From contig CAYFXC010000005.1 of the NCBI GenBank assembly GCA_964347045.1, positions 27,227 to 91,226 of the forward strand: 64,000 nucleotides of DNA, written 5' to 3'. The stretch's first letter is position 1. The number at the start of each line of letters is the position of its first letter. Below, in pieces: positions 1 through 7,611 of this stretch. The notes under the pieces were generated by a model, which was not told where the DNA came from, made no database searches, and saw only the letters and a program-made list of their open reading frames with translations. The translations under genes and the position numbers were made by a program. The stretch is from an uncultured archaeon (GTDB taxonomy: Archaea > Asgardarchaeota > Hermodarchaeia > Hermodarchaeales > Hermodarchaeaceae).

Positions 1-854
1 ACAACTTGTGCAACCTTCCAGGCTGAGCTAAGGTGGGGCGCATTTGCATTGGGTCGTTGTGCCCAAGTAACTTTGAACTCCTGGTCGGACTGAATGTCCA
101 TCCAATTCCCAATAATCAGGGGAAGATGGCGGTTTGTTATGCCTAGCCATTCAATGGACCCAAACCATGTCGGGTCAACGGGAATCCATTGGTTTCGAAT
201 CCAGACTTCACTCCAACCATGTCGTTCCCACTTTTTACCCAATGAAGCAAAGCCTGAAATCAGCCGAGCAGGTATTTTCCGGGCACGACATAATGCCGCA
301 AACAACGCTGCGTACTCCGTACAGTCACCAACCCGCTTTTCTATCGCATAAGCTGCTCCTCGCTCATGACGTTGAGGTTCATAGCGGAGGATTTCTGTAA
401 CTGTTCGCATCGCTGCCTTAATGAACGGAACTATCTCTGCATGCTCTTTCGCAATATCACGGGCTAAATCCTTAATCAAGTGATGATGCGATTCGATGAA
501 GTTTTCGGGTTTTATATAGGATTGGAGCTGGCTAGGAATGGACTGATTTTGGACAAACGAGGCTGGTTGATATTGGATTGACCGATTCCGTACTAATGCA
601 GTATATCCGCAGGTGAAGGTTTCGTCTCCCGGTAATCTGTGACATGTAATATCCAACCATTGATTTCCAACTAAATCCGTGGCTTGCAGATCCATAGTTG
701 ATTGGGGATTGAGGTCAATTAGCTGTTGGTAAGGTGGAACGGGAGTAGGAACTGCAATGAAGATTCGAACATTTGTCAAAGGAGCCGTTGCTTTGTTGGT
801 AATTGTGGTTTGGTAGGTTACGCGATGTGTAAGAATCACTGAGCTCGAGGTCAT
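1..854 (-). CDS. Transglutaminase-like (Cys-His-Asp) domain protein, truncated by the window edge; absent from the ORF track
   Basis: Manual translation from ATG 854 gives MTSSSVILTHRVTYQ...GDCTEYAALFAALCRARKIPARLISG...ERHGWSEVWIRNQWIPVDPTW, open to base 1. The ATG overlaps the TGA of the upstream ORF (ATGA). Confidence 0.9.
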   Translation of the reverse strand, partial: MTSSSVILTHRVTYQTTITNKATAPLTNVRIFIAVPTPVPPYQQLIDLNPQSTMDLQATDLVGNQWLDITCHRLPGDETFTCGYTALVRNRSIQYQPASFVQNQSIPSQLQSYIKPENFIESHHHLIKDLARDIAKEHAEIVPFIKAAMRTVTEILRYEPQRHERGAAYAIEKRVGDCTEYAALFAALCRARKIPARLISGFASLGKKWERHGWSEVWIRNQWIPVDPTWFGSIEWLGITNRHLPLIIGNWMDIQSDQEFKVTWAQRPNANAPHLSSAWKVAQV

Positions 855-1237
855 TGTTTTTGCCCGTTATCCTTGTTTTGTACATCGTTATCGGCATTGG
901 CGTTCTCGAGAATAATGACTCTACCACCAGGTGATTGAGATGTGCTAGGTTGAACATCACCGAGGAGAATAACTCTAGAGGGTGCAGTGGAATCGGTTTC
1001 TTTCTGTTCGTTTCGTGGTCCAAGAAAACGAGTGAAGTGAGGCGGATGGGCTTTAACGCCCCGAACTATTGTCCCTGGGCAGATGCCCTGACCCGTTTCG
1101 AGAAATAGAGCACGGCAGGAAGTACAAATGTAGCTACCGCAGGTAGTACAAATCCACCATTGGCTACGTGCCCTTGGGAGTGGAACTTGTGAATCACAGG
1201 CCATACACTTGATATGCGAGGCCCCGTGGATGCTCAC
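851..1237 (-). CDS. RING-like Zn-finger protein (putative E3) with disordered C-terminal tail
   Basis: CxxC-x15-CxxC-x4-CxxC-x11-CP...H pattern (CMAC...WWICTTCGSYICTSC...GICPG...H); translationally coupled to both neighbours. Confidence 0.7.
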   Translation of the reverse strand: MSIHGASHIKCMACDSQVPLPRARSQWWICTTCGSYICTSCRALFLETGQGICPGTIVRGVKAHPPHFTRFLGPRNEQKETDSTAPSRVILLGDVQPSTSQSPGGRVIILENANADNDVQNKDNGQKQ

Positions 1238-1452
1238 TCCTCCTTTTCCTCCTGCTCAGAATGTTTTCGAATGCGGTGAACTGTAACAGAAAAATGAGGC
1301 GAGAAGTTTGGGGGGCGTTCTTCTATAAAAGGAATGTCTCGTTCACGTAAAATTACAATTCGGTTCTCTTTTGATGGATCTTTTAATTGAGGTTGAACGT
1401 CATTCTCTGATTCTTGAGGGGTTTCTTCCTTGTCTGGTGACTTCTCCGACAT
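1234..1452 (-). CDS. Small acidic/disordered protein with RIVIL motif
   Basis: 72-aa ORF inside the operon; GGAGAG-like SD; overlaps the next start. Confidence 0.65.
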   Translation of the reverse strand: MSEKSPDKEETPQESENDVQPQLKDPSKENRIVILRERDIPFIEERPPNFSPHFSVTVHRIRKHSEQEEKEE

Positions 1453-1466
1453 TGATTACTTCTCTC

Positions 1467-2216
1467 CTAGCCATCATCGGCTTCATCCAGAATTCGTCCA
1501 GTTGATTTTTTCTCTGGGTCATCCAGAATCCGAGGAGGTCTTCTATTTGGTTGTTCTTGAGATTGTTCCAGTGATAGAATTTGTACTCGTCCCTGTCTAG
1601 AAGATGCAGGTGAAGTGACTTGGTGTCGTACTTCCCAGAACCGATCTAGGGTTTCGACGATGTTATTTGTGTCTTGCTCATACCATGTCATAGCGGTGCT
1701 GTTTAGTCCATGGTCAGATTGAAACTGAGATGGTGGTTCTACTCGATCTGGTTTTAACAATACAAAGAAAGGCAAATCCTCTAAAATTCGGTCGAGTTCA
1801 CCTCGAACAGAATAACATGCATGACCTGTTCCACTGGTAGCGAGCCGGGGATGATATAGGGGGGTCTCTGCTGCGGGTCGGATAATGCCGATGTTCTGAG
1901 GATACTCTCGTGGTAAATCAAAGACGAATCGATGTTCATATCGAATGGCACCTTCATCAGTCAACGATTTTGGCTGGCGGACAAACCCAGGAAGATTGCG
2001 CATGGTAAATCGAATACGTTTGTAGGCTCCATCTTTGTATCGACCAATAATTTCAACAGTAAAATCGCGGTTACTCCACCTTGTGTTCTCACGTTGGGGC
2101 GGATCCGGGTACCATCCGCGTCTTCCGTACAGATTATTCATCGCGTCAAAAAATGTATGAATTTGAGTTTCAACTCGGGCATTGAAGAGCTCGGGTGAAA
2201 ACACAGGCCGCGTCAA
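1467..2216 (-). CDS. Ubiquitin-conjugating enzyme (UBC/E2)-fold protein
   Basis: FDLPREYP...TPLYHPRL...GHAC (Cys134) and GLNSTAMTWY follow the E2 pattern F-x-LP-xx-YP...T-xx-YHPN...G-x-IC...PLN-x-AA-xx-Y. Confidence 0.8.
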   Translation of the reverse strand: MTRPVFSPELFNARVETQIHTFFDAMNNLYGRRGWYPDPPQRENTRWSNRDFTVEIIGRYKDGAYKRIRFTMRNLPGFVRQPKSLTDEGAIRYEHRFVFDLPREYPQNIGIIRPAAETPLYHPRLATSGTGHACYSVRGELDRILEDLPFFVLLKPDRVEPPSQFQSDHGLNSTAMTWYEQDTNNIVETLDRFWEVRHQVTSPASSRQGRVQILSLEQSQEQPNRRPPRILDDPEKKSTGRILDEADDG

Positions 2217-2270: not shown

Positions 2271-2591
2271 TCACAAACCTACTTCCGGAACGACATCAAG
2301 AAGGAAGAACTCGTCATCCGAAATTTTAGGATCGAGCTCACCGAAAGTTGCACCGGGGCTAAGTCTTGTGGGTTCAGGGGCTTTTCGAATTAAGACAAAT
2401 TCCGCACGTTGGTCTCCGATTTTAGCTTTAGCCCACTCATCGATGCTTACGCCTTCATCACGCGCCTGGGTAACGAGGGTGCGGATAACTTCTTCCACTC
2501 GGGTTTCCTCATCAATGCCAATACGGAATTCTTTTTGGCGGGGCTCAACGTCGACTATGATTGAGCGCCAAAAACCTTCTTCACTACTCAT
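2271..2591 (-). CDS. Putative ubiquitin-like (beta-grasp) protein, C-terminus ...VVPEVG-L
   Basis: 106 aa; strand-strand-helix pattern (SIIVDVE/KEFRIGIDEETRVEEVIRTLV), TFGEL..ISDDEFFLLDV and penultimate Gly; first gene of an E2/RING operon; SD AGGTGA. Confidence 0.65.
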   Translation of the reverse strand: MSSEEGFWRSIIVDVEPRQKEFRIGIDEETRVEEVIRTLVTQARDEGVSIDEWAKAKIGDQRAEFVLIRKAPEPTRLSPGATFGELDPKISDDEFFLLDVVPEVGL

Positions 2592-2827: not shown

Positions 2828-5722
2828 ATGACAACTAGGCATGAGACAACCCCTTTAACCCCACAGGTTGTGTTTCGTTCAATTCGTTTAGTGAACTTTG
2901 TCATTCATCGCGAAACCTCCATCCAGCTCGATAACTCGCCAATTGTACTCATAACAGGCTCGAATGGTAGCGGTAAAACCTTGATTCTTGATGCCCTTTT
3001 ATTGGCTATTGGAGTTGAATCCCGTCGGGCTCAACGCCAACGTAACTCTGCCTTCATTGGGCGTTTCGGTAAATATGCTGAGGTTGAGCTGGAACTCAAT
3101 AATTTCCAGCTCAATGGTCGACGAGTGCTACGCAGTCCTGATCCCGCTTTAAGCAAGCTCCTGGAAAGAGATATAGTATCAATTCGCCTGCGAATTCATG
3201 ATTCGAATCGAATTTCATATTGGTTGAATGGACACCGCTCAGTGAATGGTCATCAAATAGCACGGAAAGATATTCGAAGACTCTTCCAAGCTGCTGGTCT
3301 CTTTGGTGAATCCCCGCTAGCCGTAACGGAAGCAGAGACATTAGACCATTTTGCCTCTCAGTCCCCTCGACGGAAATTCGAGACATTGCTCAATGAAACT
3401 GGTTTACGGAATTGGATGGAAAAACTCGAAGAAGCCCGTTTGCTCGTACTCCAGGCTAAAGCAAATATCAAACCTCTTGAATACCGAATTCGTCACGAGG
3501 AACAACGGCTGCAAGTATTGAAAGCTGCTTATGAAGCGTATGAACAAAAACAGCAGCTCCAAAGACGACAAAAACAACTCGATATTGAAGCTGCTTGGGC
3601 TGAAGTTGTATATCGTGAAGAACTGGCAGCTCAGCTTCAATCACAAATTACAACATACAATAAACAGCTATCAGTTGAAAATAAGAAACTAGCATCGCTT
3701 GATCAACGTAAAGTTGAGTTAAAATCAAAGTTTGATTCGATTGAAGCAAAACGTGAGAAATTACTCACAACTATGAACTCTCTACGCGATCACCAAATGC
3801 AAACGCAAGGGCATCGACAAGGTTTAGAAAATGAACTCGAAGTCCTTACTGCTCGGAGTGAACGGTTTGCAAAAGATCACAAACCAAGCGAAGCAAACGT
3901 TGCAAATATTCAGAAAGAATTAGATTCCCTTGTGGCTAAACGGAATCAATTAGATGATCAGCTTACTCAAATTCGGCAAGACATTGCGTCAACAGAAGAA
4001 AGGATTTTCACGCAACCCCAGCGATATCCACAGTTTGAGGAAACCATTCTCCGCGCTTGTCAGCGTTATCGTTCCGAACTAGACAAATTAGCTCTATCGG
4101 ACTCAGTCATTGGACCACTTTTCACCCTTATCCGAATGAAACCCGAATATGTTCATCGCGAAACTGCAGTAAAGCTTGCTTTGGGTCGTTATGTTTATGC
4201 ATTTATCGCGTTAAATCGGGCTGTCTTTATTGAAGCAAAAAACCTCTATGATCGACTCTGGCCTCACGAAAAACCTGATTTAGTTGTTGCCCGTACTAAC
4301 CCAACTACTGCGATTACCAAAGAACGACCTCCCGTTTCATCACCGGTAATAGGCTGGGCTGCAGATCTCATTGAAGGTGATGTTTACGCTGTTAGCTTTC
4401 TTAGTCGTGTCGTGAATACAGCGATCGCTGAGGAGGGAGCCGATCCCAACACTGTGGTAGATGCCTCTCAACAGCTCAAAGGAAATATTATCACTAGTGA
4501 TGGCAACAGCCACTATCTCCGAATAGGAGCTTTTACTCGACCTCCTCGTCCGGTAACAGTAGGCTTTGATATTTCACTCGATGAGCTTGGATTAGCACAA
4601 GACACCAATGAATATCGTCGTATACTGCGAGAACTTCGAGAACAAGAAGCACAGCTTATGCGGGATCGAATGCGAATAAATTCTGAAATAAGTCAACTCC
4701 GATCCACACTTCAAGACTTACAGCAGGAGCGCACCCTCAAGCTTTCTCAGGAAGAAAGAAATAGTAGAGTCATTGATTCAGAACGCCGGATCAATGAGTT
4801 AAAACAACAAATACTGGAGCTTGATACTAGAAGCGACACTCTAAGCCAAGAATATCAAGATTGTAAATCGGATTTATTTCCGTTTAATTCACGCCAACAA
4901 AAAGTCACTGAGCAACTTCAAAATCTCGAATCTCAGCGGTTACGGCGTCAAGCAGAAATTGATCGTATATCCGCGGAAGTCAAACAACGAGAAGATGAAC
5001 ACCTTCATCTTATGAAACAAACCAAAGATTTTCAAAAAGCAGCAACCAAACTTGCAGATCGTCCTGATGTCGTTCGTGAGCCTGCTGCAATTCGTGATGA
5101 TCAAATACAGGTTCAAGCAATGATCGATACTATTACAGCAACTGCCAAGGATCATCAAGCCTTTGAAGAACAAGAAAAAGTTGTATCACAACTCCAAGAA
5201 TATATAAAACAACGTCAACTTCATCTTGAGAATCTTATGACCGACGTTGATCGACGACTCGTCGAATGGCGACGTCAACTCGAAGAGACTGTTGAAACTC
5301 TTAACCAACGAATGAATCAATTACTCAGCCACTTTCTCAAGCAAGTCAAACTTCTTATTCGGTATCCCGATGAACCCAGCCGAGCTGAGCTCCATCTTCA
5401 ACTTGCTATCAACCGTAAAGGGGATTGGAGAACCTATCAAGAAATGTCCGGTGGCGAACGGGTTCTGGCTACCCAAACCTTCATACTTGCCCTTCACACG
5501 TTAGCAAAAAGCCCACTCCATGTGATCGACGAATTTACCCAACGCCTTGATGAAGCGAGCCGCGCAGCGATTTTAAATGTCGTTCAAAGGGCCCTCGACC
5601 TGACCCAGCAAGAATCGCTAATACATCCCCAGTTTCTTTTAATGGCTCCATCAACGGTCGGGCTCCAAATACCCGAGACTATGAATCATGTAGTTCTGAT
5701 TAAAGGACAGGTGAAAAAATAG
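2828..5722 (+). CDS. Smc5/6-like SMC ATPase (coalescin/Smc5-6 clade)
   Basis: Walker A GSNGSGKT; long coiled coils; central hinge (VIGPLFTLIRM...ALGRYVYAFI); signature MSGGERVLATQTFILAL; Walker B SPLHVIDEF; QFLLMAP in place of the H-loop, as in Smc5/6 (QFxxxTP). Confidence 0.88.
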   Translation: MTTRHETTPLTPQVVFRSIRLVNFVIHRETSIQLDNSPIVLITGSNGSGKTLILDALLLAIGVESRRAQRQRNSAFIGRFGKYAEVELELNNFQLNGRRVLRSPDPALSKLLERDIVSIRLRIHDSNRISYWLNGHRSVNGHQIARKDIRRLFQAAGLFGESPLAVTEAETLDHFASQSPRRKFETLLNETGLRNWMEKLEEARLLVLQAKANIKPLEYRIRHEEQRLQVLKAAYEAYEQKQQLQRRQKQLDIEAAWAEVVYREELAAQLQSQITTYNKQLSVENKKLASLDQRKVELKSKFDSIEAKREKLLTTMNSLRDHQMQTQGHRQGLENELEVLTARSERFAKDHKPSEANVANIQKELDSLVAKRNQLDDQLTQIRQDIASTEERIFTQPQRYPQFEETILRACQRYRSELDKLALSDSVIGPLFTLIRMKPEYVHRETAVKLALGRYVYAFIALNRAVFIEAKNLYDRLWPHEKPDLVVARTNPTTAITKERPPVSSPVIGWAADLIEGDVYAVSFLSRVVNTAIAEEGADPNTVVDASQQLKGNIITSDGNSHYLRIGAFTRPPRPVTVGFDISLDELGLAQDTNEYRRILRELREQEAQLMRDRMRINSEISQLRSTLQDLQQERTLKLSQEERNSRVIDSERRINELKQQILELDTRSDTLSQEYQDCKSDLFPFNSRQQKVTEQLQNLESQRLRRQAEIDRISAEVKQREDEHLHLMKQTKDFQKAATKLADRPDVVREPAAIRDDQIQVQAMIDTITATAKDHQAFEEQEKVVSQLQEYIKQRQLHLENLMTDVDRRLVEWRRQLEETVETLNQRMNQLLSHFLKQVKLLIRYPDEPSRAELHLQLAINRKGDWRTYQEMSGGERVLATQTFILALHTLAKSPLHVIDEFTQRLDEASRAAILNVVQRALDLTQQESLIHPQFLLMAPSTVGLQIPETMNHVVLIKGQVKK

Positions 5723-6513
5723 TGATTGCTAATGATACATCAGCATTTCTTCGGGCTTTTCCCCGTCGTAAAGCTTGGTATGATAGTTTCCAAAATAACT
5801 ACAAACGAAACCGTCTAACACGTTTTGGTACAAAAAGTGTCATTATTACCCTTTGGAATCTGACTAAAAAATATGAAGTTGCACTCAAACATCATGATGT
5901 GGTTCCTGTTAAAGAAGCGGAATTAGACCGTGAGGAGGTCACTGATGCTTTTCGTGTTCTCGATACTCCCTGGGAACGCAATCTGGATGGGCGATTCTAC
6001 TACACCCTCGCCTCAATGCAACACCGCCGTGACGCTCAATTCGCTGCACCTGAAATTGCTCCCGAAGAATGGATTTCTCAATTCGCCAATGAGGTTAAAC
6101 GTCGAGCCACTCCTATACTCTTCTTAATTAATCAAGAGCGTACCATCCCTCCCTTTGATTTGCCTCCAGCTGATATGCCAATGGCAATGGATGTAGCACC
6201 ATCTCGAGATGATCAGCAGGCAATACGGAGACATCGAGTTCGCTTCGAAGAAATTTCAATTGCTAGGCTTGATGCTCGTCGAACTTCCATTCTGGAACGT
6301 CTAAGAGGAAAACGATACAGCTTCACAGCATTATCCAATCTTCTAACTAACTGGGAATTAGATTTGTTGAGCCAGATGATCCGTGATGATTTGCTTCCTG
6401 CTACATTCGAGAAAACCGCTATTGTCTTTCAGAAGCCATCGCAATCTCAAAAAGCTGGTATTAGATTTAGTGCTGTCGCCATTCCTGCAAAAAATCATGA
6501 GGAGATTCATTGA
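5722..6513 (+). CDS. Putative kleisin/Nse4-like subunit with C-terminal winged helix
   Basis: GTG overlaps the SMC stop; helical N-terminus, Pro/acidic linker and C-terminal WH-like segment (LLSQMIRDDLLPATFEKTAIVF); function inferred from context. Confidence 0.5.
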   Translation: MIANDTSAFLRAFPRRKAWYDSFQNNYKRNRLTRFGTKSVIITLWNLTKKYEVALKHHDVVPVKEAELDREEVTDAFRVLDTPWERNLDGRFYYTLASMQHRRDAQFAAPEIAPEEWISQFANEVKRRATPILFLINQERTIPPFDLPPADMPMAMDVAPSRDDQQAIRRHRVRFEEISIARLDARRTSILERLRGKRYSFTALSNLLTNWELDLLSQMIRDDLLPATFEKTAIVFQKPSQSQKAGIRFSAVAIPAKNHEEIH

Positions 6514-7160
6514 CAGTGACATCTGATCAAGCACCTCAAGACTCAATTTCACCTTCCTCTGAGGAAAACGAAGAAGAATTCGAGCAACATCATCTGTTAG
6601 GTCAACTCTTTGCTGCTCTCACTGCTCGATTTCGTAATGAGGATGGTCAATTGACCATCGGTGTCAAACGACAGGATTTGCTTCAAGCCCTTCATATTAA
6701 CAAAGCTGGATTAACTCGTCTACTCGATTTACTTCGCCAACAGATAACTCCGCTCGGATTGGAATTAGTTGAATATCGGTTAGGTCGAGATACACTCTAT
6801 TGTATCCGTACAATCTATGGAGTTCCTGGAGAACTCACAGATCCCGAATACGCAGTCCTTGGTGTCATAATTTCGACCATAGAACGGGCAAGCAAACATC
6901 GTCGTCCTCGCAGAGTTGCAACAAAAGACATCGAAACTATTCTCGTTGCTCGGGGACGCCTATCCCGCTACCAGCTAGATAAAATACTTCGACGTTTAAC
7001 TGAACTAGGTTACATCACACGAACAGCACGACGAATTGTATATGGTCCACGGCTGGAATTGGAATTTGATGCTGAACGTCGCGAAGCCATTTCTAACGCC
7101 GCTACTCTTTTTCTTGCGGGTGCAATTGCTGAATCGGAGGACATAAAGAATGAAACTTGA
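6510..7160 (+). CDS. KITE (tandem winged helix) protein, Nse1/Nse3(MAGE)-like
   Basis: LRQQITPLGLELV, YAVLGVIISTI and LDKILRRLTELGYI...YGPRLELEF recall Nse1/MAGE motifs (xGPRAxxE); lies in the SMC operon. Confidence 0.75.
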   Translation: MTVTSDQAPQDSISPSSEENEEEFEQHHLLGQLFAALTARFRNEDGQLTIGVKRQDLLQALHINKAGLTRLLDLLRQQITPLGLELVEYRLGRDTLYCIRTIYGVPGELTDPEYAVLGVIISTIERASKHRRPRRVATKDIETILVARGRLSRYQLDKILRRLTELGYITRTARRIVYGPRLELEFDAERREAISNAATLFLAGAIAESEDIKNET

Positions 7161-7611
7161 CCTTTCCACCGTTGGTATCAGCTGTGTTGCCTGTGGTACA
7201 CGAACAACACTCGAGCAGGCAATCCAAAATGACTGGCATCAGTGTCTCCGTTGCCAATTCTTTATTGATCCTCATTGCCTTGAAATTGTACAAAACACGA
7301 TGGGCGGAGTTTGCCCCTCTTTCAGTCAGGGAGTATCCCGGCATTCTCTACAACAAGCAGATATCCCCTCTGAACAAATCCTTATTTTCGTTAAAGATCA
7401 ATATCAGAAAGGTCGAATAGGGGTTCTCATCGACACACTCTTCTATACAAAACCATCTGCTCTTGAAAAACCTCAACATAAAAGTGAACTACAACCCCAT
7501 TTCGAAGAAGCCCTTACTCGCGAAGAAATCTGGCAACGATATGGTCTTGTATTAGTGCAACGATCCCATGGTAAATGGAAAACTTGGGAAAAAGTTGGTA
7601 GTACAGGATAA
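7150..7611 (+). CDS. RING-like Zn-finger protein (Nse1-RING-like), paralog of 851..1237
   Basis: CVAC...WHQCLRC..FIDPHC...GVCPS...H; aligns motif by motif with the 128-aa protein. Confidence 0.7.
   Translation: MKLDLSTVGISCVACGTRTTLEQAIQNDWHQCLRCQFFIDPHCLEIVQNTMGGVCPSFSQGVSRHSLQQADIPSEQILIFVKDQYQKGRIGVLIDTLFYTKPSALEKPQHKSELQPHFEEALTREEIWQRYGLVLVQRSHGKWKTWEKVGSTG

What the first reader, a model, noticed from the sequence alone, without database searches (positions are those of the whole stretch)
1..854. Unlisted transglutaminase-fold protein in the Ubl operon: candidate maturase, deconjugase or E1-independent ligase
Seen: intact Cys178-His212-Asp227 triad, translationally coupled (ATGA) to the RING gene; no JAB or E1 gene in the visible part of the operon. 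Established: this fold includes cysteine proteases, PNGase and isopeptide-bond-forming enzymes. Inference: it may trim the terminal Leu from the Ubl, remove Ubl from targets, or cross-link Ubl to lysines.
Basis: partly seen in the sequence, partly recalled or inferred. Interest (0 to 1): 0.7.

Follow-up and report, generated by a model that had tools for sequence, protein, structure and literature searches.

The report
Transglutaminase-fold enzyme in Asgard Ubl operon
A real gene for a cytoplasmic cysteine enzyme of the transglutaminase/papain fold closes a ubiquitin-like conjugation operon of an Asgard archaeon and stays linked to it in several archaeal families, but an E1 and a JAB protease lie just beyond the window edge, so it is an extra part of the cascade, not a substitute.

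Summary
Window 3..854 (- strand) encodes 284 of the 289 residues of a transglutaminase-core protein (PF01841, E 8e-21). The Cys178-His212-Asp227 triad is intact and the start shares an ATGA overlap with the RING-like gene.

A Prok-JAB gene and a ThiF-type E1 gene converge on the transglutaminase gene, and the E1 stop lies 19 nt from its stop, just outside the window. The enzyme therefore need not replace a maturase or an E1.

The linkage is conserved. All 31 of 301 sampled Asgard genomes with this E2-like gene have an orthologue. It lies next to Ubl-E2 in three families and 8-41 kb away, paired with a RING-like gene, in a fourth.

Heimdallarchaeum genomes keep the orthologue near an SMC5/6-like operon without this Ubl or E2. 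It is therefore not strictly Ubl-dependent.

The window's protein is a trimmed two-domain form of a four-domain protein of about 535 residues. Its closest solved structure is 3ISR, which has no published function.

My best guess is an accessory cysteine (iso)peptidase; a Cys-relay ligase remains possible. The scan found the same thing before on other DNA (e1-5395663).

The parts
3..854 (-). Transglutaminase-fold enzyme gene. This is 284 of 289 codons; the last 5 codons and the stop lie 15-18 nt beyond window base 1, at G000:C5:27211-28080.
   Evidence: ORF. Full gene in L002. PF01841 E 8e-21. AF2 pLDDT 92.2, pTM 0.90. 3ISR Z 24.4.
585..833 (-). N-terminal beta-sandwich domain, residues about 8-90. 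It corresponds to the second Ig-like domain of the long orthologues.
   Evidence: DSSP strands 8-90 in the AF2 model. It aligns to the N-terminal domain of 3ISR. N20, P36, Q43, G63 and N64 are invariant.
3..533 (-). Transglutaminase/papain-like catalytic core, residues about 108-284.
   Evidence: Pfam stretch 129-228. Helices and strands 108-283. Matches to TglA, TG3, TgpA, LapG and PeiW/PeiP cores.
321..323 (-). Catalytic Cys178 codon (TGT), in the GDCTE motif.
   Evidence: Invariant in 31 sequences.
219..221 (-). Catalytic His212 codon (CAT).
   Evidence: Invariant.
174..176 (-). Catalytic Asp227 codon (GAC).
   Evidence: Kept in at least 90% of sequences; one orthologue has Glu.
851..854 (-). 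ATGA overlap between the RING-like stop and the transglutaminase start (translational coupling).
   Evidence: Sequence read. The same or a similar overlap occurs in orthologous loci.
851..1237 (-). RING-like zinc-finger gene (RING1, 128 aa), the most constant immediate partner of the transglutaminase gene.
   Evidence: Weak FYVE/IBR/RING hits. The RING1-transglutaminase pair is kept in f1 and f27. It is a paralogue of the RING-like gene at 7150-7611.
1234..1452 (-). 72-aa protein with no Pfam family, conserved in all four families that carry the Ubl operon.
1467..2216 (-). Divergent E2-like gene (HPR...C134).
   Evidence: No Pfam hit. A profile gives weak matches to the active-site region, and 50 of the 51 hits are E2 enzymes; best E 0.013. 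H122, P123, R124 and C134 are invariant.
2271..2591 (-). Ubl gene. The protein ends ...EVG-L; Val-Gly is invariant and the cap varies.
   Evidence: The Ubl fold itself was not tested here.
2828..7611 (+). Divergent SMC5/6-like operon (SMC, kleisin-sized protein, KITE-like protein, RING-like protein). The transglutaminase orthologues also stay near this operon in f27 and f4.
Evidence: I did not retest it.

Best explanation
The gene encodes a complete, selected, cytoplasmic Cys-His-Asp enzyme of the transglutaminase (papain-like) fold. It has two domains, a beta-sandwich and a catalytic core. It is a trimmed version of a four-domain protein of about 535 residues (Ig-Ig-core-Ig) that is conserved in Hermodarchaeota- and Heimdallarchaeota-type Asgard archaea.

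It is an accessory, fifth gene of a second, non-canonical ubiquitin-like system made of Ubl, a divergent E2, a 72-aa protein, a RING-like protein, an E1 and a JAB. That system is itself tied to an SMC5/6-like operon.

Shown here: the fold, the triad, purifying selection, cytoplasmic location (no signal peptide, unlike its bacterial relatives), conserved linkage, and the presence of E1 and JAB next door.

Inferred: it acts as a cysteine (iso)peptidase. Cys178 would attack an amide or isopeptide carbonyl, His212 and Asp227 would serve as the general base, and the acyl-enzyme would be resolved by water. The substrate would be Ubl conjugates or the proteins that the system marks. That would make it a second deconjugase or processing enzyme beside the JAB metalloprotease, much as eukaryotic Ubl systems combine JAMM and papain-fold proteases. 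It does not replace E1 or JAB.
For: Fold and chemistry:
- PF01841 E 8e-21.
- The triad is invariant or nearly so in 31 sequences.
- The AF2 model has pLDDT 92.2.
- 3ISR, deposited as a 'putative cysteine protease', matches at Z 24.4 over 253 residues and TM 0.71.
- Other structural neighbours include a protease (LapG, Z 8.4) and the isopeptidases PeiW/PeiP (Z 7.2-7.3).
- dN/dS is 0.08-0.09.

Linkage:
- The E2-like gene is found in 31 of 301 sampled Asgard genomes: f1 18/18, f5 1/1, f27 9/11, f29 2/2. All 31 also have the orthologue.
- Gene orders differ between families yet keep the enzyme: f1 has Ubl-E2-72aa-RING1-TGase converging on E1-JAB; f5 and f29 have Ubl-E2-(72aa)-TGase; f27 has SMC-kleisin-KITE-RING2-JAB-E1-Ubl-E2-72aa, then 8-41 kb, then RING1-TGase.
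- Starts overlap the upstream gene in f1, f5 and f29.
- The linked orthologues form one clade apart from other Asgard transglutaminase-like paralogues (SH-aLRT 88).

E1 and JAB are present and look intact. The genome also has a canonical ubiquitin gene and UQ_con E2 genes elsewhere, so this is a second system.
Against: - No activity has been measured, and the fold cannot tell hydrolysis from acyl transfer. Transglutaminases and TgpA are also structural neighbours.
- The closest structure, 3ISR, has no published function (PMC4866520).
- Heimdallarchaeaceae (f4) keep the orthologue with an intact triad in 25 of 29 sampled genomes. Neither the Ubl nor the E2-like gene was found in 29 f4 genomes with a single-protein query, or in three to five f4 genomes with profiles that did hit positive controls. 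Two of those genomes are single-contig. The enzyme therefore does not strictly need this Ubl.
- The Pfam scan (E up to 0.1) returned no known DUB or Ubl-protease family, and no known DUB or Ubl-protease appears in the two structure-search lists.
- No fusion to a Ubl, RING, E2 or JAB domain was found among longer homologues.
- In the reconstituted Caldiarchaeum system the JAMM protease alone matures and deconjugates.
- The orthologue clade has only moderate support (88).
Confidence: 0.42

Rival explanations
1. It is an acyl-transfer enzyme rather than a hydrolase. In one version, RING1 recruits E2~Ubl, the Ubl passes to Cys178 as a thioester, and His212/Asp227 activate a substrate lysine. That would be a split, RBR/HECT-like Cys-relay E3. 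In the other version it cross-links or deamidates a glutamine, as a true transglutaminase does.
For: - The gene is translationally coupled to RING1, and the RING1-TGase pair survives as a unit in f27 even when it lies 8-41 kb from the rest of the system. JAB, by contrast, pairs with E1.
- Transglutaminase chemistry passes through a Cys thioester that is resolved by an amine (established knowledge).
- Animal transglutaminases (Z 9-10) and TgpA (Z 9.5) are structural neighbours.
- From my own knowledge, not tested here: Cys-His-Asp ubiquitin ligases (Legionella SidC) and a ubiquitin transglutaminase (MavC) exist.
Against: - f5 and f29 have the enzyme directly after E2-72aa with no RING1.
- f4 has it without this Ubl, E2-like gene or RING1.
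- Most prokaryotic members of this superfamily are predicted or shown to be hydrolases.
- There is no four-domain animal-type architecture (TM about 0.2-0.37).
Confidence: 0.2
2. Its substrate is not the Ubl. It is a protease or amidase that acts on the SMC5/6-like complex or on another chromatin or cellular target. It sits with the Ubl genes because both modules serve the same SMC5/6-like pathway.
For: - In f4 (including the complete Heimdallarchaeum aukensis and H. endolithica genomes) the orthologue lies 5-8 kb from RING2-KITE-kleisin-SMC in at least 16 loci, and this Ubl and E2-like gene were not found.
- In f1 and f27 the SMC5/6-like operon is adjacent to, or fused in one direction with, the Ubl genes.
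- The extra Ig-like domains of the long form look like substrate-binding modules.
Against: - In f5 and f29 the enzyme follows Ubl-E2 directly, and no SMC operon was detected within 10 kb.
- f4 is a single family with general synteny, so it counts as one observation.
- f4 genomes still have canonical ubiquitin and E2 genes on which the enzyme could act.
Confidence: 0.2
3. It is an unrelated housekeeping gene trapped between two convergent transcription units. The linkage would be inherited synteny without shared function.
For: - Within f1 the whole neighbourhood (helicase-like gene, HAD hydrolases, malic enzyme, Ras-like GTPase) is syntenic, so f1 loci are not independent.
- Transglutaminase-like paralogues are common in Asgard genomes: 212 of 301 have some match.
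Against: - Four families with different gene orders keep it beside or near the Ubl genes.
- Start-stop overlaps occur with three different upstream genes: RING1, the 72-aa gene and an E2-proximal ORF.
- Co-occurrence is 31 of 31.
Confidence: 0.1
4. One reading: it is the system's only maturase/deconjugase, or an E1-independent ligase that replaces missing JAB and E1 genes.
For: No JAB or E1 gene lies inside the window near the operon. The Ubl carries a one-residue cap.
Against: - JAB and E1 lie immediately beyond window base 1 and look intact. They are conserved there in all f1 loci and upstream of the Ubl in f27.
- The Ubl cap is absent in many genomes that keep the enzyme.
Confidence: 0.03

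Closest known systems
PDB 3ISR, Cytophaga hutchinsonii 'transglutaminase-like enzyme, putative cysteine protease' (COG1305-type two-domain protein)
   Same: It has the same two-domain build, an N-terminal beta-sandwich plus a transglutaminase core. Z 24.4, rmsd 3.0 over 253 residues, TM 0.71, profile E 4e-22.
   Different: Identity is only 18%. It is bacterial and a structural-genomics entry with no published function. No Ubl context is known for it. The window's protein gave no PF08379 (Bact_transglu_N) hit at E up to 0.1.
Transglutaminase-like cysteine hydrolases with known activity: LapG/BTLCP proteases, pseudomurein endo-isopeptidases PeiW/PeiP, vasohibins
   Same: They share the core fold and a Cys-His-(Asp/Ser) triad: LapG Z 8.4, PeiW 7.3, PeiP 7.2. 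PeiW/PeiP cleave an isopeptide bond. Vasohibins remove a single C-terminal residue (own knowledge; family assignment in PMC4866520).
   Different: The structural similarity is low and covers the core only. The domain contexts differ, and they act in the periplasm, on the cell wall or on tubulin. None is linked to a Ubl system.
Animal transglutaminases (TG2, TG3, factor XIII) and Pseudomonas TgpA
   Same: They share the catalytic core and triad (Z 9-10). The long orthologue is also a multi-Ig-plus-core protein.
   Different: The domain order and packing differ (TM 0.16-0.21 for the long form). Cross-linking activity was not tested.
Caldiarchaeum subterraneum E1/E2/RING/Rpn11 ubiquitylation operon (Hennell James et al. 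2017, PMC5654768)
   Same: It is an archaeal operon with a modifier, E2, E1, a small RING protein and a neighbouring JAMM protease. The modifier is made with a C-terminal cap.
   Different: That system has no transglutaminase-fold gene, and its JAMM alone matures and deconjugates. Here the Ubl ends in a single Gly, the E2 is too divergent for Pfam, and the system coexists with a canonical ubiquitin/E2 set.
Eukaryotic papain-fold Ubl proteases (Ulp/SENP, UfSP, Atg4, UCH/USP/OTU)
   Same: This is what it may work like: a Cys-His-Asp hydrolase that matures and removes a Ubl beside JAMM enzymes. Eukaryotic SMC5/6 also works with SUMO and ubiquitin ligases (own knowledge).
   Different: It is not a member. 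The Pfam scan (E up to 0.1) returned none of these families, and none appears in the structure-search lists. The resemblance is functional analogy only.
PNGase / Rad4-XPC transglutaminase-fold domains that bind the Ubl-UBA protein Rad23
   Same: They share the superfamily (PNGase Z 6.5, Rad4 Z 5.2) and a link to the ubiquitin world.
   Different: The match is weak and limited to the core. I did not see the Zn-binding N-terminal domain that Krishnan et al. (PMC6222260) describe for the PNGase lineage. Rad4 is catalytically dead, whereas this protein keeps its triad.

Membership tests
Transglutaminase-like superfamily (Pfam PF01841, papain-like clan) | HMM score above the curated cut-off | tested here: met
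   74.8 bits against a cut-off of 23, E 8.1e-21, covering the full profile 2-108.
Transglutaminase-like superfamily (Pfam PF01841, papain-like clan) | Cys-His-Asp catalytic triad in the canonical order | tested here: met
   C178, H212 and D227. C and H are invariant and D is kept in at least 90% of 31 sequences.
Transglutaminase-like superfamily (Pfam PF01841, papain-like clan) | Alpha/beta core fold shared with solved members | tested here: met
   AF2 pLDDT 92.2. Matches to 3ISR, TglA, TG3, TgpA, FXIII and LapG at Z 8.4-24.4.
3ISR/COG1305-type two-domain putative cysteine proteases | N-terminal beta-sandwich packed on the core, with full-length structural match | tested here: met
   Z 24.4, 253 of 284 residues aligned, TM 0.71.
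3ISR/COG1305-type two-domain putative cysteine proteases | Bact_transglu_N (PF08379) sequence signature in the N-terminal domain | tested here: not met
   No PF08379 hit at E up to 0.1. I did not check whether 3ISR itself carries that domain.
Protein-glutamine gamma-glutamyltransferases (true transglutaminases) | Sandwich-core-barrel-barrel architecture of the animal enzymes | tested here: not met
   The short form has two domains. The long form is Ig-Ig-core-Ig, with TM 0.16-0.21 to TG2, TG3 and FXIII.
Protein-glutamine gamma-glutamyltransferases (true transglutaminases) | Gln-Lys cross-linking or amine-incorporation activity | not testable with these tools
   This needs an enzyme assay.
Known deubiquitinase / Ubl-protease families (UCH, USP, OTU, Josephin, Ulp/SENP, UfSP, Atg4) | Sequence-profile membership | tested here: not met
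   The Pfam scan at E up to 0.1 returned only PF01841, PF13471 and three unrelated weak hits.
Known deubiquitinase / Ubl-protease families (UCH, USP, OTU, Josephin, Ulp/SENP, UfSP, Atg4) | Structural match to a solved member | tested here: inconclusive
   None appears in the top 50 of either the Foldseek or the VIA-align lists. Absence from a list does not exclude a match.
Known deubiquitinase / Ubl-protease families (UCH, USP, OTU, Josephin, Ulp/SENP, UfSP, Atg4) | Binding and cleavage of the cognate Ubl | not testable with these tools
   This needs an assay.
Peptide:N-glycanase (PNGase) lineage | Close core similarity plus the N-terminal Zn-binding domain | tested here: not met
   Z is only 6.5, far below 3ISR. 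The N-terminus is a beta-sandwich.
Archaeal E1/E2/RING/JAMM Ubl operon (as a component) | Conserved co-occurrence and gene linkage with the Ubl, E2, RING, E1 and JAB genes | tested here: met
   Co-occurrence is 31 of 31. The gene is adjacent or nearby in f1, f5, f29 and f27. The exception is f4, which keeps it without this Ubl or E2.
Known anti-phage Ubl systems (Bil, CBASS Cap2/Cap3) in PADLOC | Match of the transglutaminase, E2-like, Ubl or RING1 proteins to defence-system models | tested here: not met
   There were no hits for these four proteins. Only generic E1 and JAB domain hits appeared.

The most novel reading that the evidence does not exclude
RING1 and the transglutaminase-fold enzyme together form a two-piece ligase that uses a catalytic-Cys relay, analogous to RBR/HECT, or an ATP-independent transamidase. 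It would attach the non-canonical single-Gly Ubl to the SMC5/6-like complex. That would be a ligation chemistry not known in any Ubl pathway of the cell's own, found in the archaeal lineages closest to eukaryotes.
Probability: 0.12. Interest if true: 0.85.

Novelty: new variant of a known kind. Interest (0 to 1): 0.55.

Why it matters
Described archaeal ubiquitin-like cascades consist of a modifier, E1, E2, a small RING protein and a JAMM protease. This finding adds a papain/transglutaminase-fold cysteine enzyme as a conserved extra gene of one such cascade in Hermod- and Heimdallarchaeota-type Asgard archaea. That cascade is physically tied to an SMC5/6-like operon.

In eukaryotes, Ubl pathways combine JAMM and papain-fold proteases, and SMC5/6 works with SUMO and ubiquitin ligases. 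If the enzyme is a deconjugase, the pairing of a metalloprotease with a cysteine protease would predate eukaryotes. If it is a ligase, it would be a new Ubl-transfer chemistry.

Either outcome can be tested with five or six small recombinant proteins. I found no paper in the searchable library that links a transglutaminase-like protein to an Asgard Ubl operon. This covers only the library searched.

Tried and rejected
- Complex prediction of the enzyme with the Ubl, both given as alignments, gave no verdict (score 0.27 against a mark of 0.32). It counts neither for nor against binding. The first attempt failed because the machine was busy.
- I looked for fused forms among longer homologues. 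Only PF01841/PF13471 architectures appeared, with no fusion to Ubl, RING, E2, ThiF or JAB.
- A PADLOC scan found no defence-system model for the enzyme, the E2-like protein, the Ubl, RING1 or the 72-aa protein.
- NCBIfam gave only a far sub-threshold hit to a transglutaminase-related lipoprotein family.
- PNGase/Rad4 ancestry was considered because of the Rad23 link. I rejected it as the closest relation, since Z is 5-6.5 against 24.4 for 3ISR.
- The conserved 616-646-aa protein with no Pfam family downstream of the enzyme in f27 has no homologue in the window's genome. It is not a general partner.
- Literature searches for Rv2569c, for Asgard + ubiquitin + transglutaminase, and for transglutaminase-like + ubiquitin-like + operon + JAB found nothing on this linkage.
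- The look-up of sequencing runs and the protein-atlas search were closed, so I could obtain no expression evidence and no atlas look-up.
- The Ubl profile found no solved relative.
Full report
**1. What is at the coordinates**

The minus strand of window 3..854 carries an ORF of 284 codons that runs off the window's first base. The window is G000:C5:27227-91226. I fetched the 15 kb before it. The gene there is L002:14985-15854(-), 289 aa, so only five codons were missing. Four of them read X because ten bases there are masked.

Pfam places residues 129-228 in Transglut_core (PF01841, E 8.1e-21, 74.8 bits against a cut-off of 23). Their codons are at 321-323, 219-221 and 174-176. The start shares ATGA with the stop of the RING-like gene at 851-1237.

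**2. What lies beyond the edge**

Two genes converge on the transglutaminase gene from the + strand. One is a Prok-JAB gene (PF14464, L002:13537-14127). It overlaps a ThiF-type E1 gene (PF00899, E 2.6e-34, L002:14048-14965), whose stop is 19 nt from the transglutaminase stop.

JAB keeps a Glu and an HSHP...SSTD motif. E1 keeps GAGAVG and the CxxC motif. The enzyme therefore does not have to stand in for either.

**3. Structure**

With a 31-sequence alignment, AlphaFold2 gives pLDDT 92.2 and pTM 0.90. The model is a beta-sandwich (residues 8-90) packed on an alpha/beta core.

The best solved match by far is 3ISR, a Cytophaga 'putative cysteine protease' (Foldseek E 9e-18, TM 0.71; VIA-align Z 24.4, 253 residues, rmsd 3.0). 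Its function is unpublished (PMC4866520).

The next matches cover the core only:

| Structure | Z |
|---|---|
| TglA | 11.2 |
| TG3 | 9.7 |
| TgpA | 9.5 |
| FXIII | 9.3 |
| LapG protease | 8.4 |
| PeiW/PeiP isopeptidases | about 7.3 |
| PNGase | 6.5 |

The fold therefore spans hydrolases and transferases and does not decide between them. There is no signal peptide, whereas the bacterial relatives in the alignment start with hydrophobic segments.

**4. The window's protein is a trimmed form**

Most orthologues are 510-600 aa. A model of the 534-aa orthologue (pLDDT 85, pTM 0.85) shows four domains: Ig-like (7-95), Ig-like (117-219), core (232-416) and Ig-like (432-533).

The 289-291-aa forms lack the first and last domains. 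In a maximum-likelihood tree they sit inside the f1 clade. They are under purifying selection (dN/dS 0.08-0.09).

**5. Is the linkage conserved?**

I sampled 301 genomes of the phylum. The E2-like gene occurs in 31 of them: f1 18/18, f5 1/1, f27 9/11 and f29 2/2. All 31 have a transglutaminase orthologue.

Gene orders differ between families:

| Family | Taxon labels | Gene order |
|---|---|---|
| f1 | Hermodarchaeota-labelled MAGs, including Hermodarchaeum yapensis | Ubl-E2-72aa-RING1-TGase, converging on E1-JAB, and divergent from SMC-kleisin-KITE-RING2 |
| f5 | Asgardarchaeum abyssi | Ubl-E2-(72aa)-TGase, with overlapping starts |
| f29 | a Heimdallarchaeota MAG | Ubl-E2-(72aa)-TGase, with overlapping starts |
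| f27 | Heimdallarchaeota MAGs | SMC-kleisin-KITE-RING2-JAB-E1-Ubl-E2-72aa in one direction, then 8-41 kb of unrelated genes (aromatic-amino-acid lyases, HisRS), then RING1-TGase |

Within f1 the whole region is syntenic, so f1 counts as one observation. That leaves four independent arrangements. The orthologues form one clade, separate from other Asgard transglutaminase-like paralogues (SH-aLRT 88).

**6. The exception**

Heimdallarchaeaceae (f4) include the complete genomes of Heimdallarchaeum aukensis and H. endolithica. They keep the long orthologue with an intact triad in 25 of 29 sampled genomes. It lies 5-8 kb from RING2-KITE-kleisin-SMC in at least 16 loci.

The E2-like gene was not found in any of the 29 f4 genomes. 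Profiles of the Ubl and of the E2-like protein found nothing in three to five f4 genomes, although they hit positive controls at E 1e-46 to 1e-110. These genomes do carry a canonical ubiquitin gene and UQ_con E2 genes, as does the window's genome on another contig.

Two conclusions follow. The operon here is a second, non-canonical Ubl system. The enzyme is not strictly dependent on it.

**7. The Ubl end**

The Ubl ends in an invariant Val-Gly followed by nothing, or by L, K, F, I, IK or FSS. The enzyme is present where no cap exists, so cap trimming cannot be its only role. In the reconstituted Caldiarchaeum system the JAMM protease removes the cap and also deconjugates, and that operon has no transglutaminase-like gene (PMC5654768).

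**8. Reading**

Shown here:
- a real, selected, cytoplasmic Cys-His-Asp enzyme of the transglutaminase fold;
- conserved linkage to a Ubl/E2/RING/E1/JAB system and to an SMC5/6-like operon;
- it is not a substitute for E1 or JAB.

Inferred, with my estimated probabilities:

| Reading | Probability |
|---|---|
| Accessory cysteine (iso)peptidase acting on Ubl conjugates or on the system's targets | about 0.4 |
| Acyl-transfer enzyme working with RING1 (Cys-relay ligase or transglutaminase) | about 0.2 |
| Ubl-independent enzyme of the SMC5/6-like pathway | about 0.2 |
| Mere neighbour | about 0.1 |

**9. Novelty**

I found no paper in the searchable library that links a transglutaminase-like protein with an Asgard Ubl operon. 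The SMC evolution preprint describes the SMC5/6-related operons but not these neighbours.

The scan itself had already reached the same conclusion on another genome (e1-5395663). My result is independent and agrees with it. It adds three points: the trimmed two-domain form, the f27 one-direction SMC-to-Ubl arrangement, and the f4 exception tested with positive controls.

Noticed in passing
L023:21-6136, L024:8-5138, L026:10-5590 (Heimdallarchaeota MAGs, f27): The SMC5/6-like operon and the Ubl system form one co-directional string: SMC-kleisin-KITE-RING2-JAB-E1-Ubl-E2-72aa. This is a tighter coupling than the divergent arrangement in the window.
   Followed up: partly
G000:C8:42607-44895 (same genome, another contig): This is a canonical ubiquitin gene (PF00240, E 2e-11) flanked by two UQ_con E2 genes. 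The genome therefore has two separate Ubl systems, and the one in the window is the non-canonical one.
   Followed up: partly
   Followed up: yes
window 851-1600 (tails of the E2-like, 72-aa and RING1 proteins): Short R-[VI]-x-[IL]-[IL] strand-like motifs recur in the low-complexity tails of three adjacent proteins (GRVQIL, RILD, NRIVIL, SRVILL, GRVIIL). They are kept in orthologues (RVxIL, RILD, VKIL).
   Followed up: no
L019:1942-3660: This is an aromatic-amino-acid lyase (PF00221, E 1e-168) with a rubredoxin domain inserted at residues 277-324. It lies between the Ubl genes and RING1-TGase in f27.
   Followed up: no
L011:10494-12344, L012:6677-8617(-), L019:10305-12173, L022:3475-5343(-): A 616-646-aa protein with no Pfam family always follows the transglutaminase gene in f27. 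No homologue was found in the window's genome.
   Followed up: partly
L002:11922-13397 (1.6 kb before the window): An SF2 helicase-like gene (ResIII + Helicase_C) sits next to JAB-E1 in every f1 locus.
   Followed up: no
L045-L061 record titles: MAGs of one family that carry near-identical loci are labelled in their records as Hermodarchaeota, Promethearchaeota, Thorarchaeota, Odinarchaeota or simply 'archaeon'. An f27 contig is labelled Bathyarchaeia.
   Followed up: no
L002:14991-15000 (just before window base 1): Ten bases read N (withheld) inside the last codons of the transglutaminase gene. Its last residues are therefore unknown in this genome; orthologues end ...VVGIHPS or similar.
   Followed up: yes
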